Of a DNA stretch of 64,000 nt, positions 14,507-64,000 are shown piece after piece. The position numbers and the translations under genes are program-made. Below the pieces are notes generated by a model. That model searched no databases and had not been told where the DNA came from. It saw nothing but the letters and a program-made list of their open reading frames with translations. This DNA is from Octopus vulgaris. Its lineage: Eukaryota. Each line of letters starts with the position of its first letter. Position 1 is the stretch's first letter. The stretch lies in assembly GCA_951406725.2 (NCBI GenBank), contig OX597840.1, positions 15,748,001 through 15,812,000 on the forward strand, written 5' to 3'.

Positions 14507-15345
14507 TCCCACCCAACTCTCCTCTCTTGCCCTAACTCCTACTTCTCTTCACCCCTACTCATTTCCTCTTCTCTCTTACTCTCTTTCTTTCTTCTCTCCT
14601 ACTCTCTTTCTCTTCCCTCTTCTCTCTTACTCTCTTTCTCTCTTCTCTCTTACTCTCTTTCTTTCTCTCTTCTCTCCTCCTCTCTCTCCTCACATACCCA
14701 CCCTCCCCTCCCCCCATAAGCCCACCCACCCCTACACATTCCTACTCCACCTTCCCATCCCCCCTCTTATCCCACATACCCCACCTCTACCCCCACTCTC
14801 TGCCTACCCACAAACCCCAACTCTACCCCAATCCTCAGTCGAACCCACACCCCACCCGTGCTTTCCCCAATCTCACCTCCCCCACCTCCCAACAACATCA
14901 CACCACACCACACTACACCATACAACATTACACATCACATCACAACACACCATCCAAACACCCATCCCCACATTTTCACACCTACACATACATACACGCA
15001 CACTCCAGACCACCAGCCCTCTTTCACACGCACATACATACTCTCTTATATACGCACGCACCTTCGTGTTGGGGGGTCATCTTTACTTTGTTATCTCCCC
15101 TACTTTCCCTCTCATGTGTGACCCTTCTGTCCAAGTCAGCACCATGATAGATCATTAGCCACTACACACAAATTTTTTTCTCTCCTTGTTTCTCTCCTTG
15201 TTTTTTTTCTGTGTCCCTTTCTGTAGAAGAGCGTAGGCTCAAAATGTAAAAGACTTTTTCTATTCCTGAGCGTTATACTAATACATCTGTTTGTTTTGTA
15301 CACCACCTGTCTTTGTCTTTTGTTTTTTTCGTAAACTCTCCCTAT
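14507..15345 (+). mobile_element. Penelope-like element 3' tail/pLTR (same family as 62400)
   Basis: CT/CA-rich tract then agccactac...gaagagcgtaggctcaaaatgtaaaagac, homologous to 62400-62540. Confidence 0.7.
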
Positions 15346-54639: not shown

Positions 54640-56990
54640 ATCTTCTCAATGTTGAGAATGTCACCGCCAATGCAGAGAGAGGGAACTTGAAGTGGTGGAT
54701 GAGGATTGTGTTGATGTATTACTTCTGTTTTCTAGGTGTTAACCTCCAGACTGAGTTGTTGATAAACGCTCTGACATCCAGGACATGCTGCACTGATTCT
54801 TGATCGTGAGTTGGCAGACCACAGTCAGCAATATACTGGAAGTCTGAGATTTTGATTTGAATCATCGGAGATTGAAAACACTAATCGTGATTCCATTGTC
54901 AGGATCGAGGTTGCTCCACACGAGGAGATTTATGGCCATGAGAAAGAGATTGGAAAGAACTGGAGCAAGAAGTATGCAGCCTTGTTACATGCCAGAGCTA
55001 ACATCAAAAGGGTCTGATCCTGACCGACGATGACCACTTGAGCTTTTATGCCCTCATGAAACTTGAATGAGTCGCAAAATCCTTTGTAGATGCTCAAGCT
55101 TTTGCAGAAGACTCTAGAGAAGCATGCAATTTACAGTGTTGAATGCTTTGATAGATCGACAAAAATCAAGTAGAGATCTCGATACTTCTTTTGAATCTAG
55201 CGTGCAACAAAAATTATGTCAATGGTACCACTATTTCTGTGGAAATCACACTGTGATTCTGGGAGAATTCTCCGAGAGAAATGAGACCAGTCTAGAGAGG
55301 AGAATATGAGCTAGGATTTTCCCAACCACTGCCAAGAGGGAAATCATGTAATTCTTTCCACAGATGGAAGAATCTTGTAGACGGAGATGATGTTCCTGAG
55401 GAAGGGGGCCAGTGTCTCAGATACTGCTGAACAGTTTGTGAAGATGGCTGTGTTGTGCGATGCCACCATACTTGTAGATCTCAGGAGGGGTGACATCTGA
55501 TCCAGGTGACCTCCTGTTGTGGAGAGATCGGACCACCAAAGAGACCTCGTCAAAGAAATTGGAATATCTAGCTCTTTGATGATGGGGAAGTTGGGAAATT
55601 GACTCAGAGCAGCCAGTTCAATCACATGTTGACACTTGAGAAGATCTTTGAAATGCTGTGCCCATCACACGAAGATTTGGTCAGAATCCTTCAGAAGTAC
55701 GTTTCTGCCAGCACTGCAAACAGGTACATTGTGCTTGGACAATCGATCTATAGATCGATTTGGTGACTCCATGAAAGTAGTAACTATTATTGGTGTCAAA
55801 GTTGCACTGAATCTCTTCGGTTTTCTTGATTCATCAGCTGTTCTCCATTTGCCACAGGAAGCGTTGGACGTCAGAGCAAAGAGAATGCAACTCATCATTA
55901 AGATACAAGGACAAGGGATTTGTGAAAAACGCATCTTGCGCATTGTTCTTCGCTGCGAGATCACAAGTTTCTGCCTGATTGTCATCAAACCAGTCTTAAT
56001 GACGGCATTTAGTGAAGCCAAGAGGATCTGTGGCAGCAGCAAGTAATGGTTCTCTGAGAGAGAGAGAGAGAGCCATTCGATGTTCGATTCCGAAGGAGCA
56101 AGAGAATTTTAAAGCTCACTATGTATTTGGAGTTTCAGTTCATTTTGCTTTGCTTGAGACTTAAGGAGATCATATTTGAGCTTAGGTTTCAGAGACTTGT
56201 AGGTGTATCTGAGAGCAGAGTCGAGACCAAACGAGGTGGTGGTTAGTCTAACATTCGGTTCATGCATTGCTCTTGTTGGAAGGACATCTTGGATGTTGCA
56301 TTGGCACTCTGGAATGTAATCCTAGAGATGTCAGTGCTTGGACCAAAGATGTTACCAAGAAGTTTTGTACTTAGAGGCTTATTGAAAAATTGGGTTTGTG
56401 ATCACAAGTCCATGCTCAGCACAAAGAGCAAGAAGACGAAATCTGTTCGCATTAACCAGACATCACAGTCAGGTCTGATGTCACCTAAAACAAAGATTTT
56501 ATCTTTTTGAGGCATGGAGCGGATCAAGTTGTCCAGCTCGTCATAAAAAGAGTCCTTGACATCTTCATGACAGTCAAGAGTCAGTGCAAACACACTGATA
56601 CAGGGGTTAGTTTGACCTCCAGCCACAAGAACAGAGTCATCAGTCTTTCATTGATACCAACTGGTATCTCAGGAAGTTTGGGAAGCAGTGTGTTCCTGGT
56701 GGTTAAGCCCACACCATATATGCACTGCTCATTTCTTGGAAAACCTTTTCAGAAAAAACATGTAGCCAGATTCCATTACAAATCCTTCATTAGCAAAGCG
56801 AATTTCGCTGAGGACCACGATATTGATTTCATATCGGGTGAGTTCAGTGCAATGAGTGCAGTCCAATGTCAGGGTGGGTCTATGGTTGTGGAATCAATCT
56901 CTTTTTCCATTAGTGTATGTACATTCCAGCAGGCAACTTTCAGAAGAACTTCATGCTTCTTTTTCACAGTTCGACTGCAGAAGATGATGT
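54640..56990 (-). mobile_element. Old, heavily degraded RTE/BovB-like LINE (APE plus RT)
   Basis: ISVFALTLDCHEDVKDSFYDELDNLIRSMPQKDKIFVLGD (APE), RWAQHFKDLL and KAFNTVN remnants. Confidence 0.85.
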
Positions 56991-56999
56991 TTTGGTGGG

Positions 57000-57385
57000 T
57001 CATTTTGTTCCGAGTTCAAATTCTGTCGAGGTCGACTTTACCTTTCATCCTTTCGGGGTTGATAAATTAAGTACCAGTTGCATACTGGAGTCAATCGATG
57101 TAATCGACTAGTCCTCTCCCCCAAATTTCAGGCCTTGTGCCTTTAGTAGAAAGGATTATTATTATTATTATTATCATTATTAAGGTGGCAAGCTGGCAAA
57201 ATCATTAGCATGCTAGGCAATATGCTTAGCGGCATTTTGTCTGTCTTTATGTTCTGAGTTCAAATTCGTCCTTTTGGTGTCGATGAAATAAGAACCAGTA
57301 GAACACTAAGGGCGATGTAATCAACTAGTCCCCTTCCCCAAATTTCAGGCCTTGTGCTTACTGTAGAAAGGATTATTATTATCAT
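57000..57385 (+). mobile_element. Tandem dimer of Meta-domain-like SINEs
   Basis: Same unit as the 25972 array. Confidence 0.8.
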
Positions 57386-57460
57386 TTAGTGGAACTAGCT
57401 GTGAGTTTCATGTGTTGGCACTTATGAATGAACAAAAACGAAACTTTCAGACCTTGAGTC

Positions 57461-57505
<45 letters not shown>

Positions 57506-57942
57506 CATTGGTTGTGGTAAATGCAGTAAGCCTCAAACAGGCAAGGCTTGTAAAGATAACACAAAGGAGACAATATCTGCTCAATATGGTTTATTAAACA
57601 ATGTATCCAATACACTTGGTCACAAATCAAATACATACATACATATTCATTTTTGTATTTAGTTTTCAAGATTCTGTATGTGAATTTGTGTGTTGAAGCA
57701 TAATTTATTGTGTCTGGGGAGAGTTATTCTGTTTTAATGCCTTATTAATTAACACACTCACTGGTTCAATTACCACTCATTTATTATTTTGTTTTTCTAA
57801 AATTTTCGTTGCTTCTTGCAACCTCTTCAATAGTCGTCAATGACTATATAAGTAAATGCGTGGAAATCGAATTGGTGAGTGTGTTAATTAATAAGGCATT
57901 AAAACAGACTGACTCACCCTAGACACAATAATAGATAGATAG

Positions 57943-58038
57943 ATGGCTTATCTTACCAATCAGTTTCACAGCAGAGGTTCAACCGAGTGTTGGGTAACAA
58001 CCCGATTATGTAAGCCTGAGCTCATCAGAGGTAGCCAT
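57943..58038 (-). ncRNA. Minimal type-I hammerhead ribozyme with long stem II
   Basis: Minus strand auggcuaccu-CUGAUGA-(long hairpin)-GAAA-cugauug-GUA-agauaagccau. Confidence 0.75.
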
Positions 58039-58397
58039 TTATATATATGGTTTGCTGAGTATCCGAAATGCTGTTTGATCCACAATAACAAATTACAAGA
58101 GCAGTACATAACATTTCAACCGCTATGATTTAATTAGTCCAGGGTTCCACTGAGTGACTGCATACACATTTTCCGCTGACACCTCCTCACTATTTTGTGT
58201 TTGTGTAATCAGCCAGGCATACATACACATACATATATATTACATAAATATGATACACACGCATATATATAATTACACATATCATACACACACAAATATA
58301 TATGGAAGTACCCAGTGTAAGTTATGGACACATAACAGGTGCAGCAACATTCAGTTGTAAAACAAACAAAAAAAAATGAGCACTTTATTTTAACATT

Positions 58398-58625
58398 TTG
58401 CCAGACAAATTGCTATGGCCAAACCAAGTTCCTTTCTGAAGTGGTATATGATTTTTTGCAGTCTTCTTACAACTTTTCTTGTTGCACTGAAACCTGTGCT
58501 CTGAGTGACATCATCCGGCCCGCTTCACTTCGTAAATTTTTCTCAGTACAGTTTAACAAGATGGGCAACGCATTTGTTTTGCTAGGAACCCAAGTTGATG
58601 GCAATAACTTTTAACCTTTTTATAA
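58398..58625 (-). mobile_element. Merlin (IS1016/IS1595-related) transposase N-terminal zinc-finger relic
   Basis: GFLAKQMRCPSC*...RFQCNKKSC...LQKGTWFGHSNLS, with two in-frame stops. Confidence 0.72.
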
Positions 58626-58799
58626 TACTTCTTTTTACCTGGGCAAATTTCTCTGAAATTTTATCGCCAAGAAACAAAGCTGGCCAGTATGGGATTTTTG
58701 TCTGATTTCCAGGCCATTTGAAACGTATATGTAAAAAGGCGATCTTTCGTTTTGAGAACAGTTTACATCACTTCTTAATGCACGTGGGTTTATTTATGT

Positions 58800-59977
58800 T
58801 TCTGAATAAGATCGTCGCTTTCCGTAAAAAGTTTTTATGTTTTTACTTATGTGGCGGGGGTGGGGAGAAGGGGAGAGGGGACTTATCTTTTGAAGTCGGC
58901 GCAAAAGGGAAAGAGAGAGAGAGAGCAATTAGAAGAGGGGAGCATTTTTTGAAGTCGGAATTGATGTGTGTGTATGTTTGATGGGGTGTGCGAGACAGAA
59001 AGTGTGGTGTGTATGTGAAGTTGTTTTGTTAGTGTGTGTGAAGAGACAGAGAGAGCAATGGTTTTGGTGTGTGCGTGTGATTGAGGGAGAGGGATAACTG
59101 AAAATTTTTTTTATTTACTTTTTGTAGTGAGTGATTGACAGAGAAAAAGAGAGAGAGAGAGAGAGGTTGTTATGTATGTATGAATGGCTTCAGTGACACG
59201 CACAAACACATACGTACGTACACCTATTGCATACGTTTTTTACATACATGTTCATGTGCGTGTGAGGGAGAAAGAGAAGGTATGTGTTTTTGTTTTTGCT
59301 TCTATGTATGTTTATGTAATGGTCTGCTATATATAACAAGCAAAAACAAAAAAACCTATCTTCTCTCTCTCCCTCACACGCACATGAACATGTATGCAAT
59401 AGGTGTTCGTATGTGTTTGTGTGTGTCACTGAAGCCATTCACACATACATAACAATCTCTCTCTTTTTCTCTGTCATTCACTCACTACAAAAAGTAAATA
59501 AAAAATGTTTCAGTTATCTTTCTCTCTCTCACTCAATCACACACACCAGCACCATTGCTCTCTCTCTCTGTCTCTTCACACACGCCAACAAAGCAACTTC
59601 TCATACACACCACACTTTCTCTCTCGCACACCCCATCAAACGACGGAATAAAAATTGACAAACATATGTCTGTGTATACTCTACAGCTTGTGTGTGCGTA
59701 TATATTACATATACATACGCACACACTACGTGAGTGTATATGGGTGATGGATGAATAAAGTGAAAAGCCGAATGGCATCAGAAGAAGAAACATACAGAGG
59801 TTTCTCTGGTGCAACTGATTCGGCGAGGGGTCGTAAATCAAACTTCCAGCCGTAGAAATCACAAAGGTCCAGTTCCAATCAATTCCTCCGCTTCACGCCG
59901 ACGTCTAAAGCTCCCACCACACACACTCATAAGTAAAAAAAAAATTTTTTTACGGAAAGCGACAATCTTGTTCAGAA
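58800..59977. repeat. About 1.2-kb imperfect palindrome (foldback)
   Basis: Inner arms 58976-59300 / 59338-59641 and outer arms 58800-58965 / 59880-59977 are reverse complements. Confidence 0.9.
59639..59879 (-). pseudogene. Inverted duplicate of the exon 1 3' half, donor and intron start of the 60497 gene
   Basis: Reverse complement aligns with 60587-60847, with a short deletion in the exon part and indels in the intron part; GTATGT donor retained at 59795-59790. Confidence 0.9.
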
Positions 59978-60339
59978 TATGTGCGAAAAGGAGTTTGTTT
60001 GAGAATTGGCTGTTTAGAAATGTCGATTTTTGCCAATTTTTTTGCAGATTCGTATTTCCCGTAGCTGAAAGGGGTGGGGTGGGGTGCGTCGAAAAAAAAA
60101 TTTTAAGGGTGGTTTTGTGGGGGCCGGGGGAACGGGCGGAAGTCTTGCCAAAAGTTATTTGGAAATCATAAAGAGAAACGAATGACAGAATCGAACCGTC
60201 TGCATTTTAAAACCTTAGATTAAAAAAAAAATCTCCGACTAAATCCGGTGCTCCAGCATGACCGCAGCCAAATGACAACCAAATAAAAGAATAAACCTTT
60301 CCCCCCATGTCGCCCACCTATCACCCCCACTTCCAGAGT

Positions 60340-60496
60340 TTCACTTTTAGTTGAGCAGTCAACGCATGCGCAATGGCGAAAAGGGTTTCAAAACTTTGTG
60401 TTTATGCCGTAGACTGTGATTACATATAAACATATATCTGTGTGTGTGTGTATATGTATGTATGTATTTAAATAAATACAAGTGAAGCCAACGACG
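60340..60496 (+). promoter_or_regulatory. CpG-retaining housekeeping-type promoter/5' UTR with NRF1-like and YY1-like motifs
   Basis: CGCATGCGCA at 60363-60372 overlapping CAATGGCG, about 125 nt upstream of the ATG; CpGs are locally preserved. Confidence 0.6.
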
Positions 60497-60675
60497 ATGG
60501 ACGATAAAAAAGTGCTGCAGAGTTTGTTAGTGTGTGTATATTATGTTGCCGTCCTTAAAATAAACCCTTCGAGAGCTGAAAGTTGTATCGGAACTGGACC
60601 TTGTACTTGTGATTTCTACGGCTGGAAGTTTGATTTACGACCCCTAACCGAATCAGTCGCACCAGATAAACCTCT
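60497..60675 (+). CDS. First coding exon of a secreted or type-I membrane protein, mannose-6-phosphate-receptor (MRH)/ATG27-like
   Basis: acgATGG start; encodes MDDKKVLQSLLVCVYYVAVLKINPSRA-ESCIGTGPCTCDFYGWKFDLRPLTESVAPDKP, i.e. a signal peptide then a C-x5-C-x-C-x7-DLxPL pattern; donor CT|gtatgt at 60676. Family call is from recalled motif similarity. Confidence 0.75.
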
Positions 60676-61113
60676 GTATGTACACCAATAGTCTTATTTC
60701 TTTCTCCAACTTGTTCCTCTCTATTTACTGTTTCTTCCTCTGATGCTATTTGGCTTATCGCTTTATACATCCATCACCCTATATACGCACACACAAGCTG
60801 TTGAGTATACACAGACACATATGTTTATCCATTTCTATTCCGTCGTTCTAAATATGGCTTGAGAAAAGTTTAACAACTTTTATAAATGTTCAAGTTCCGT
60901 TATATGTGTGTTGTCTAAGATTCGTATAATTCGGAAGAAAGCTACACTCGTATTTCTCAATAAAGTGAGTATATTAATCAAAAGTATACAATAGTATATA
61001 TATATATATATATATATTGGTAAAAACGGTAAGATAACAAAAGAAAGAGACCTCAATATTATGTAAATAGAGGAAATTTATCTGTAAAATAATGTGACAA
61101 TTATTCAATAGCC

Positions 61114-61176
61114 AGATAACCGAAGAGATGGTGTTGTGGATTTCCACCTCGGCATCCGAAACTCAGAGTTTTATCT
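61114..61176 (+). ncRNA. Hammerhead motif with U4C core change (CCGAAGA) in a long hairpin
   Basis: Stem I AGAUAA/UUAUCU extending to 61085-61208, paired stem II, GAAA-CUCAGAG-UU. Confidence 0.65.
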
Positions 61177-62032
61177 TGGCTACCGAATAATTGTCACATA
61201 TTATTTTATATATATATATATATGGCATCCTTTCGATAAAATTGAAAGAATGTCATATATGTATATATACACACATACGATTGTTTATTTCATAATAAAA
61301 TAATAATTTAACCTCTCCATGAAAAAAATTAATATGAATAACTTTTCTGATAGTTTTTTTTTTTATTTCAATGATTAGATGTTTACAAATCTTTTATCTA
61401 ATCATTAAGATTCTTTCTTATTCAGTTTTAATAATAGCAGTTGTGTGTATATGTGTTTGTATATGTATATATGTGTGTGTACTTTATTAAAAAGTATTGA
61501 GTAGTCATTCAGTTTAATGTTAATTTTTATATATAACTTAAACACAAACATTAATATATATGGCAATCTTTCGTCTCTAAGATCGCCGTTGCGAAGATAT
61601 AGATGCCTCTTGAAGGGATGTTGACATACAAGTTCCCCGGTTTTATCCTGTGTATCGGTGAAATGCTAAAATGTTGCCTTCTCAGTCGATTGAGATGTCA
61701 TTCCTTTTTATATCAATTTCTAACCCTGATGAAATATTCAACTCAATATATTCAAAATGCATTTTTGATTTAATTATTTGTATTGGATATAGAAAACAAT
61801 TGAAGGTAGTACGAATTTGATAAATTGATGTCTATCTGTCGATTTCTCCAGTTTCTTAAACATTATATGTATATATCATAAGGGCACGTAAGGCGCCTAT
61901 CTGCTAGAAAGAGGGATTAAAACCAATAATAACACGGCAAAATCCGACAGAAAGTCAACAGTAGTCTGGCGAACGGGCCAAAGAATTTTTCTCTCATTCC
62001 TATATAATGCTATATATTTATTGGTATTTGTA

Positions 62033-62372
62033 GTGGCTGTGTGGTAAGTAGTTTGCTTCCCAACCACCTTGGGCAACCAAAGCCTTGTAAGTGGATTTGG
62101 TAGACGGCAATTGAAAGAAGCCCGTCGTATATATATGTATATATATATATGTATATATATATATATGTTTACTTGTGTATCTGTGTTTGTCCCCCCATCA
62201 TCGCTTGACAACCGATGGTGGTGCGTTTACGTCCTCGTAACCTAGCGGTTCGGCAAAAGTGACCGGTAGAATAAGTACTAGGCTTACAAAGAATAAATCC
62301 TGGGTTCGATTTGCTCGACTAAAGGCGATGCTCCAGCATGGCTGCAATCAAATGACTGAAACAAGTAAAAGA
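62033..62372 (+). mobile_element. CORE-type SINE copy (internal deletion, CpGs retained)
   Basis: Homology to the 24521 copy. Confidence 0.88.
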
Positions 62373-62399
62373 TATATATATAGTTGGAATTTTAAAAAC

Positions 62400-63480
62400 A
62401 ACAAAAGACGAAGACAGGTGTATTAGTATAACACTTGGGAATGTGAGAAAGTCTTTTACGTTTCGAATCTACGCTCTTCAACAGAAAGCAACACGAGAAA
62501 ATAAACAGAGAGAATTAAAAAATGCTGTAGTGGCTAGATGGAGATGATCAGACAGGAGAGCTAGGAAGAAGGGGAGATAATAAAGTAGTGGTGATCCTAA
62601 AACGAAGGTGTGCATGGGTATGTATGTGAGATTGTATAAGTGTGTGTGGATTGGGGCTGGTGACCTTGACGTGTGGGTGTATGCATATGTAGGTGTGTGG
62701 ATGATGGTGTGGGTGCTGGGAAGTGGTCAATGCTAGTGTGTGGAGGGTGGTGTGGGATTGGGATGTGGATGGATGGGGTAACAATGAAGAGAGAAAGTGA
62801 GTAGAAGTGAAGAAAGTAGGTGTCAGGGCAAGAGAGGAGAGGTGGATGGGAGTGAAGAGAGGAATTAAGTGTGAAAGGAGAGAGGAGGGGAGTTGAGCCC
62901 ATGTGGCACAAAGGAGCGAAAAGAGAAGATTAATTCCTGTTCACGACGAAGGCAGGAGTCCGGATGGCCCCTGTGCAAAGACAATCTGAACACAGACAGG
63001 TGTTGTAATGAGTGACCAGTAGAGCAGAAATGGCGCGAGACTGGGATGTTGTTGTCGAGTCTGATGTCTCAGAGGTCTTCTGTGAAGTGGTCAGCCAAGC
63101 AGCATCCCATTTGACCAATGTACAGAGAAGGACAGAAAGAGCAGGAGATGCAGTAAGTGACATTGCTAGAAGTGCAGGTGAAGGAGTCAGTGATATGATA
63201 GGGACAATGATGGTTGCCTGTGCAGCTGGTGGTGTTGGAGAGGTAGGGGCAAGTGAGGCAGCTTCAGCGGGAGCAGGGGAACAAGCTAGGCTGGGAGGTG
63301 GGGATAGGGAAGAAACTGTGAACCAGGAGGTCACGTAGGTTGTGGGCTTGTTTGAAAGAGAGGAAGAGTAGGTTAGGGAAGATGTGCGCAGTGGAGGGGT
63401 CAGACTAGAGTCGCCGAAAGGCTCGGACAATGGTGCATTGGAGAGGCGGGTTGGTAGGTGAGGGGAAACAGGAGACAGGT
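62400..63480 (-). mobile_element. Penelope-like element 3' part (Neptune-type Cys-rich linker, GIY-YIG endonuclease, pLTR)
   Basis: Minus-strand translation HNLRDLLVHS...CSRxSCLTC...FTCTSSNVTYCISCSFCPSLYIGQMG...REQELIF...PHGLN, then a low-complexity tail and a hammerhead-like motif near 62450-62490. Confidence 0.9.
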
Positions 63481-64000
63481 AACAGTGTGTGTGCATATGT
63501 ATTTGTATAAGCCTCTATGTATTAAGTTTTGTTTACAAAACCAAACACACACAAAAGGTGTATCGAATAAACTCTGCTAGAATATTTATTTGAAATATTC
63601 ATAAAAATAAACCAAACTATTTTGCGAGTTTTCTTTGCCATTTATCTTTCTGGAAGTCAATCGTTGGATAACGAACCAGTTGAATGTTGGATGGAATCGG
63701 TCATCACCACCCACCCTCAAGATGTATGGCCTTGTCTATAGAAGAATCTTGTTTTGTGCCTATTTTGCAAACGGCGGGATTCTAGTCTAAACACCCTATG
63801 TAACCACATGTAGCTTTTTTAATTTTGGGAATTTTCAGAAAATTTTTGTGAAGTTTTGTTCTACACATAAAAATTCATATGATTATGGGGGGGGAAAAAT
63901 GTAAAAAATTTTTTAAGCTTTCTCCCCCTACCCCCATTTCTACTCTTTTTTTTTTTTTTACTTTTTTAAAAAATCAGAGTTTATAATATGGATAGTCTGA

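What the first reader, a model, noticed from the sequence alone, without database searches (positions are those of the whole stretch)
58800..60847. Promoter-adjacent palindrome has captured an inverted copy of exon 1 with its splice donor
Seen: 58800-59977 is a foldback. Its right arm carries a 240-bp insert (59639-59879) absent from the left arm, which is the reverse complement of 60587-60847 (exon 1 3' half, GTATGT donor, intron start). The insert abuts the inner arm through a short aac/aaac microhomology. Inference: templated insertion or template switching created a mirror-image first exon facing away from the same promoter, a possible newborn divergent transcript.
Basis: partly seen in the sequence, partly recalled or inferred. 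Interest (0 to 1): 0.72.

Follow-up and report, generated by a model that had tools for sequence, protein, structure and literature searches.

The report
Merlin foldback holding neighbour's flipped exon
A broken mirror-image jumping-DNA element beside a gene carries a flipped copy of part of that gene's first exon, likely pasted in long ago by DNA repair; the one RNA piece seen across it is unspliced and likely an edited hairpin read toward the gene, not a new backward transcript.

Summary
The structure is real, but the reading changes. The palindrome (58738-59977) is one copy of a dispersed repeat family tied to Merlin DNA transposons: GGC termini, 8-bp target duplications in 2 of 3 complete relatives, and the same arm on a transposase-bearing copy. 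This copy lost its right end. Its right arm holds a single-copy 241-bp inverted copy of 60587-60847 (3' part of a verified exon 1, donor, intron start), joined by 2- and 3-bp microhomologies. That matches published short-range gap-filling capture (single-copy Pack-TIRs). It is not newborn: contigs from four organism labels carry it, it differs from its source by 7.4%, and each copy has its own later deletion. The only RNA contig across it is unspliced at 59796 and has 12 clustered A>G changes on the + strand, all paired with the left arm. This points to a low-level plus-strand hairpin RNA edited by ADAR, in which the insert is antisense to exon 1. A regulatory effect is possible but untested. 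The scan earlier noted another Merlin palindrome with a host exon in a different genome.

The parts
58560..58737 (.). Left part of an older dispersed repeat into which the element inserted
   Evidence: Aligns with five uninterrupted or partial paralogs, which continue directly into sequence matching 59978+
58738..59301 (+). Left arm of the foldback element, with the complete Merlin-type terminus (GGC...)
   Evidence: Sharp shared end with unrelated flanks in most of about 20 copies; 1132 candidates in G000; same arm at the 5' end of a transposase-bearing copy, L116
59302..59337 (.). 36-bp spacer (hairpin loop), homologous to the spacer of paralog L015
59338..59641 (-). Inner right arm, inverted copy of 58976-59301
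   Evidence: 17 mismatches in 293 columns
59484..59545 (+). Cluster of 12 A>G differences in one RNA contig, likely A-to-I editing
   Evidence: Run X9, contig 59355-59855; all 12 pair with U of the left arm in the predicted fold
59639..59879 (-). Captured inverted copy of 60587-60847, replacing about 10 bp of (GT)n in the arm
   Evidence: junctions bridged by DNA contigs
59790..59795 (-). Mirror splice donor GTATGT, intact in sequence, use not seen
   Evidence: sequence; the one contig across it is unspliced
59705..59741 (-). 37-bp ancestral intron block kept in the insert and lost from the source intron
   Evidence: The intron read-through of outgroup peptide P0002 aligns to it
59880..59977 (-). 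Outer right arm, shortened internally and missing the last ~62 bp of the terminus
59978..60420 (.). Right part of the older repeat with nested repeat pieces (60013-60149, 60236-60295); 60293-60420 overlaps the 5' part of the gene's RNA contigs
60326..60675 (+). Exon 1 of a host gene (ATG 60497; signal-peptide-like start, then a Cys-containing stretch); the 5' limit is a contig end, not a mapped start
   Evidence: 71% identical homolog P0002
60587..60847 (+). Source segment: last 89 nt of exon 1, used donor at 60676, start of intron 1

Best explanation
A non-autonomous Merlin-type foldback transposon copy sits 0.4 kb upstream of a gene, and a break in its right arm was likely repaired by briefly copying 0.3 kb of the neighbouring exon 1/intron 1 DNA in reverse, leaving an old, likely near-neutral capture whose only seen RNA is a likely ADAR-edited plus-strand hairpin. 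Steps: (1) shown: family membership by sequence, and insertion into an older repeat; (2) shown: single-copy inverted duplication with 2-3 bp microhomologies, replacing a short (GT)n tract; (3) inferred: break at the hairpin-prone arm, then synthesis-dependent or microhomology-guided gap filling from nearby genomic DNA (DNA or unspliced RNA, since intron sequence was copied); (4) inferred: this happened around the time the family was active, since insert-source divergence (7.4%) resembles arm-arm (5.8%) and nearest-paralog (7.6-8.1%) divergence; (5) shown: the right terminus is gone; inferred: the copy cannot move, hence one copy; (6) shown in one run: unspliced RNA with an A>G cluster; inferred: + strand transcription, arm-arm duplex, ADAR editing.
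For: Family. Two end types both begin GGC; 8-bp duplications at 7/8 match flank 2 of 3 complete copies (L106, L110; L111 has none), chance about 6e-4 each. G000 has at least 150 PF12762 matches; 6 of 25 such loci show GGC termini with 8-bp duplications, and L116 carries this family's arm upstream of a Merlin transposase. Capture: single copy; microhomology chance 7% (>=2 bp) and 2% (>=3 bp) in simulation; fits cis bias under 5 kb, median 2-bp microhomology and median 224-bp size in PMC8277862. Age: (Fisher P=0.58). RNA.
Against: No target duplication can be checked in this copy because the right end plus 11-13 host bases are deleted. The arms (~560 bp) are longer than the 24-462 bp given for Merlin TIRs. 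L116 lacks its other end, so it has no TSD test. The order of events is not resolved by the divergences. The editing rests on one contig of depth 5 in 1 of 4 runs, whose RNA status is not on record. No DNA contig of that organism label was shown across 59484-59512. The missing 5' G next to edited sites says nothing here, since only 2 of 78 A's in the arm have one. Neutrality is inferred from decay, not tested.
Confidence: 0.72

Rival explanations
1. The capture made a working cis/antisense regulator. Plus-strand RNA starting in or before the element carries a 93% antisense copy of exon 1's 3' part and donor. It would pair with exon 1, within one molecule or in trans, to mask the donor, attract editing or yield small RNAs.
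For: Plus-strand RNA through the insert is indicated in X9. In a fold of 58790-60860, 79 of 89 exon bases and 12 of 13 bases around the donor pair with the insert. The insert is kept in four organism labels. Antisense Pack-TIR transcripts are proposed in PMC8277862.
Against: The A>G cluster lies only in the arm-arm duplex. The single A>G inside the insert (59783) is also in DNA runs X1, X5 and X11. The RNA is low: contig depth 5 against 90-138 for exon 1 in the same run, a crude figure. The insert has decayed (50-bp and 5-bp deletions, 15 substitutions).
Confidence: 0.12
2. One reading: the insert acts as a mirror first exon of a divergent transcript from the same promoter, spliced at 59796.
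For: The mirror donor GTATGT is intact in the same exon-side context as the used donor. It lies about 450-550 bp from the 5' ends of the gene's RNA contigs, with no minus-strand AATAAA/ATTAAA in between.
Against: The only RNA contig crossing 59796 is unspliced and its editing pattern indicates the + strand. The mirror exon lacks the ATG and 5' half and has a 5-bp deletion. The event is old, not newborn.
Confidence: 0.08
3. Element insertion, capture and loss of the right end were one complex event, such as abortive Merlin excision or insertion repaired by serial template switching, rather than a later independent gap fill.
For: All three rearrangements (terminal loss, internal shortening, insert) sit in the right arm. 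The divergences are statistically alike (P=0.58).
Against: No substitution is private to the two window arms: all 5 shared differences are also in paralog L015. That gives no sign of later arm-to-arm recopying, but it does not exclude an early event. PMC8277862 found post-insertion, transposition-independent filling to be the usual route.
Confidence: 0.3
4. The palindrome is a Penelope-like retroelement insertion (inverted 5'-truncated copy lacking a 30-40 bp tail) that switched template onto nascent pre-mRNA.
For: In several paired copies one arm stops 13-62 bp short of the terminus. This copy has no TSD and a small target deletion. Such structures are described in PMC8557442 and PMC3846280.
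Against: The short ends are mostly a second terminal type beginning GGC. Complete copies have 8-bp TSDs. The arm is linked to a Merlin transposase. No hammerhead family appeared among the Rfam matches in 56000-64000.
Confidence: 0.03

Closest known systems
Single-copy Pack-TIRs made by gap filling (Tan et al. 2021, PMC8277862; seen: passages, methods section 14, supplement term search)
   Same: TIR element with a single-copy capture from under 5 kb away, short microhomologies, size near the 224-bp median, small replaced segment, exon plus intron DNA, co-transcribed with the element.
   Different: Here the element lost one terminus, which that pipeline would reject. The capture sits in one arm of a long foldback, is inverted relative to its source, and carries the neighbour's first donor. 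'Merlin' and 'octopus' have 0 occurrences in that main text; in the supplements Merlin appears only as a column head.
Merlin / IS1016-like DNA transposons (PMC8101967; passages seen)
   Same: 5'-GG termini, 8-bp TSD, imperfect TIRs, DDE_Tnp_IS1595 transposase in a relative.
   Different: This copy is non-autonomous, with ~560-bp foldback arms and no right end or TSD.
Turmoil-1 of C. elegans (PMC2572040; abstract and Findings section 3 seen)
   Same: Host exon-intron DNA taken up inside the long inverted arm of a DNA transposon in an animal.
   Different: Turmoil-1 is Harbinger-type and multicopy with the capture in its ITRs; here the capture is in one arm, in one copy, next to its source.
Hyper-edited inverted repeats (PMC5625713; passages seen)
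   Same: Cluster of A>G changes in a long duplex formed by inverted repeats; Octopus is listed there as exceptionally hyper-edited.
   Different: Here the edited RNA also carries an antisense copy of the adjacent gene's exon 1; only one contig supports it.

Membership tests
Merlin superfamily | Termini begin 5'-GG | tested here: met
   Left end GGC at 58738; both family end types begin GGC
Merlin superfamily | 8-9 bp target-site duplication in the family | tested here: met
   2 of 3 complete copies, each 7/8 match
Merlin superfamily | TSD around this copy | tested here: inconclusive
   Right terminus and 11-13 host bases are deleted, so none can be read
Merlin superfamily | DDE_Tnp_IS1595 transposase in an autonomous partner | tested here: met
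   L116: family arm, then a frameshifted PF12762-matching ORF; its other end is lost. The window copy has no transposase.
Merlin superfamily | TIR length 24-462 bp as described | tested here: inconclusive
   Foldback arms are ~560 bp; the true TIR limit inside the arm was not defined
Single-copy Pack-TIR (Tan 2021 criteria) | Internal sequence 100-5000 bp, >=90% identical to a unique parent, length ratio 80-120% | tested here: met
   241 vs 261 bp, 92.6% ungapped, one other copy in G000
Single-copy Pack-TIR (Tan 2021 criteria) | Both flanking pieces cover >=10 bp of the element's terminals | tested here: not met
   Right arm lacks the last ~62 bp. It works like a Pack-TIR but is not filed as a strict member.
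Single-copy Pack-TIR (Tan 2021 criteria) | Cis proximity and microhomology at breakpoints | tested here: met
   708 bp between copies; AT and GTT microhomologies
Single-copy Pack-TIR (Tan 2021 criteria) | Outgroup has the element without the capture | not testable with these tools
   No relative genomes are held; all four DNA runs laid carry the insert
Penelope-like element | Inverted truncated copy lacking a 30-40 bp tail | tested here: inconclusive
   Apparent tails of 13-62 bp are mostly explained by a second terminal type
Penelope-like element | Hammerhead motif or link to a PLE RT/GIY-YIG ORF | tested here: not met
   No hammerhead family among the Rfam matches; the arm is linked to a Merlin transposase instead
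ADAR hyper-edited inverted repeat | Cluster of A>G changes in a long duplex | tested here: met
   12 of 12 clustered changes are A>G and paired; fold z = -31
ADAR hyper-edited inverted repeat | Absent from DNA of the same individual | not testable with these tools
   No matched DNA. A contig of another organism label covering 10 of the 12 sites has only 3 differences in 299 bp.
Spliced divergent (upstream antisense) transcript | Minus-strand RNA spliced at 59796 | tested here: inconclusive
   Four contig-level runs; the only contig across the site is unspliced and likely plus-strand

The most novel reading that the evidence does not exclude
A Merlin transposon built an antisense switch for its neighbour: the captured, flipped exon-1/donor piece rides on a plus-strand, ADAR-edited hairpin RNA that pairs with the gene's own first splice donor and tunes its splicing or level, and it has been kept across a group of closely related cephalopods.
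Probability: 0.12. Interest if true: 0.72.

Novelty: new variant of a known kind. Interest (0 to 1): 0.36.

Why it matters
As it stands it is a well-resolved example of a known process, local gap-filling capture by a TIR transposon. My searches found no report of it for Merlin elements in a cephalopod (and term counts in PMC8277862; these searches are narrow). It shows how a transposon next to a promoter can acquire an antisense copy of a first splice donor, and that such hairpins appear to be ADAR substrates in an animal group known for heavy editing. It would matter more if the antisense piece proved to regulate the gene, or if the mirror donor were used; neither is shown.

Tried and rejected
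Minus-strand splicing: no contig or loose end at 59796 appeared in the rows shown for X8, X9, X12 and X20 (12 loose-end rows were cut). X8, X12 and X20 have no cover over 59666-59889, and their exon-1 contigs are unbroken across the stretch shared with the insert. No contig links the palindrome RNA to exon 1. Lack of cover is not evidence, and no holder was on record as RNA. Penelope-like origin: considered, dropped. Helitron origin: the inner arm (58965-59232) also lies inside a 1.7-kb TC...CTAG Helitron family, but the window copy lacks those ends. A second local capture in L017: rejected, since the inner piece is a common SINE no closer to the flank copy (90%) than other copies are (medians 90-92%). 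Later recopying of one arm from the other: no private shared substitutions. Exon 2: not found in 100 kb downstream or by pattern in G000 with up to 3 mismatches; a 100-N gap lies 20.6 kb downstream. Naming the gene: Pfam gave nothing; two homolog searches for longer proteins found nothing; P0002 has no name; hits P0003-P0005 look spurious; no Atlas result was obtained. No upstream host gene was found: the 150 longest of 211 filtered reading frames gave only two reverse-transcriptase hits and three weak ones below cut-off. Paper searches were seen as listings only, apart from the papers cited; PMC2884549 (passages) was not useful.

Full report
Observation. The foldback and the inverted insert are as described. 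The inner arms (58976-59301 and 59338-59641) differ at 17 of 293 columns. The insert 59639-59879 matches 60587-60847 at 189 of 204 columns, with a 5-bp and a 50-bp gap and a 37-bp extra block. G000 (2.8 Gb) returned only these two copies. DNA contigs bridge the junctions in all four runs laid: X1 59554-59855 (inner junction), X2 59540-59855 and 59826-59957, X5 59540-59855 and 59835-59951, X11 59597-60042. These runs carry four organism labels from four studies and differ from the window by 0-7 bases per piece. The best holder may be the source of the assembly, but the others show the structure is neither an artefact nor private to one sample.

The gene. The frame from ATG 60497 reads as a signal-peptide-like start followed by a Cys-containing stretch. 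RNA contigs of X8, X9, X12 and X20 stop at 60675, and three show a near-identical loose continuation, so the GT at 60676 is used. A 71%-identical unnamed homolog exists (P0002). The family could not be named, and exon 2 was not found in G000.

The palindrome. A search with the left arm gave 1132 candidates and 51 matches. Copies share a sharp end at 58738 with unrelated flanks. Paired copies first suggested a Penelope-like 'tail', but listing all ends showed two terminal types, both starting GGC. Of 7 loci with the second type, 3 had both ends, and 2 of those 3 are flanked by 8-bp duplications at 7/8 match (chance about 6e-4 each). PMC8101967 (passages) gives 5'-GG termini and 8-9 bp TSDs for Merlin. 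G000 has at least 150 matches to the Merlin transposase family. Six of 25 such loci show GGC termini with 8-bp duplications, and L116 has this family's arm directly upstream of a frameshifted Merlin transposase. The window copy sits inside an older repeat. Uninterrupted paralogs show that the last ~62 bp of the right arm, any TSD, and 11-13 host bases are gone.

The capture. The insert replaces about 10 bp of (GT)n, with AT and GTT microhomologies (simulated chance 7% and 2%, post hoc). It includes intron sequence, so the template was DNA or unspliced RNA. This matches the gap-filling route for single-copy Pack-TIRs in PMC8277862: cis bias, median 2-bp microhomology, median 224 bp. The lost terminus fails one of that paper's filters. 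The intron read-through of P0002 aligns without a large gap to the source across the 50-bp block, and to the insert across the 37-bp block. So the insert lost one block and the source lost the other after the duplication. Divergences are 7.4% (insert vs source), 5.8% (arm vs arm; Fisher P=0.58) and 7.6-8.1% (arms vs the nearest paralog). The capture is therefore about as old as the insertion and several times older than the differences among the organisms sampled. The data cannot separate a later gap fill from one complex event.

RNA. In X9, one contig spans 59355-59855 unspliced at depth 5.35, with 14 differences of which 13 are listed, all A>G on the + strand. One (59783) is also in DNA runs X1, X5 and X11. 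The other 12 cluster in 59484-59545, and each pairs with a U of the left arm in the predicted fold (hairpin z = -31). One of them (59496) also appears in paralog-derived DNA contigs. A>G read on + implies a plus-strand RNA, as expected for ADAR hyper-editing of inverted repeats (PMC5625713, passages). Limits: one contig, possibly one molecule; run type not on record, though it holds the spliced exon-1 join; no matched DNA. On this strand the insert is antisense to exon 1, and a fold of 58790-60860 would pair it with the exon end and donor. No editing cluster was seen there.

Verdict. Best reading (0.72): an immobilised Merlin foldback with an old local capture and a low-level edited hairpin RNA. 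Most novel reading (0.12): an antisense regulator of the first donor. Earlier scan note e1-8814027 describes a Merlin palindrome with a host exon in another genome. I had reached Merlin before seeing it, did not check its claim, and took from it the Turmoil-1 paper. Supplements of PMC8277862 were searched by term only; its species list was not read. PMC11167929 was seen as passages.

Noticed in passing
window 59978-60420: The gene's upstream region is a patchwork of repeats; the 5' parts of its RNA contigs (from 60326-60363) overlap a dispersed repeat (60293-60420, 86-90% identical to many copies), so the promoter or 5' UTR may be transposon-derived.
   Followed up: partly
window 61562-61587: Tiny hairpin with a Merlin-type GGC end and its inverted partner, similar to a 110-bp mini element in L128; possibly a collapsed element of a related family inside intron 1.
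   Followed up: no
L060:1030-2757 and 18 similar loci: A 1.7-kb non-autonomous Helitron family (TC...CTAG, 3' hairpin, tandem junctions in L066) carries a ~270-bp piece of the same Merlin arm sequence.
   Followed up: partly
L022 (G000:C18 near 48.986 Mb): A family copy duplicated in inverted orientation together with its flanking SINE; the arms are 97% identical, so it is a recent inverted duplication.
   Followed up: no
window 57705-57931: Another small palindrome (79-bp arms, 87% complementary).
   Followed up: no
L004 (20.6 kb downstream of the donor) and L009-L010: A 100-N assembly gap that may hide exon 2, followed about 50 kb further on by GC-rich sequence that looks like rDNA (recalled, not tested).
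   Followed up: partly
window 62414-63480: Repeat also present at 14953-15290; its end resembles a Penelope-type hammerhead motif by eye (recalled; Rfam gave no hammerhead match).
   Followed up: no
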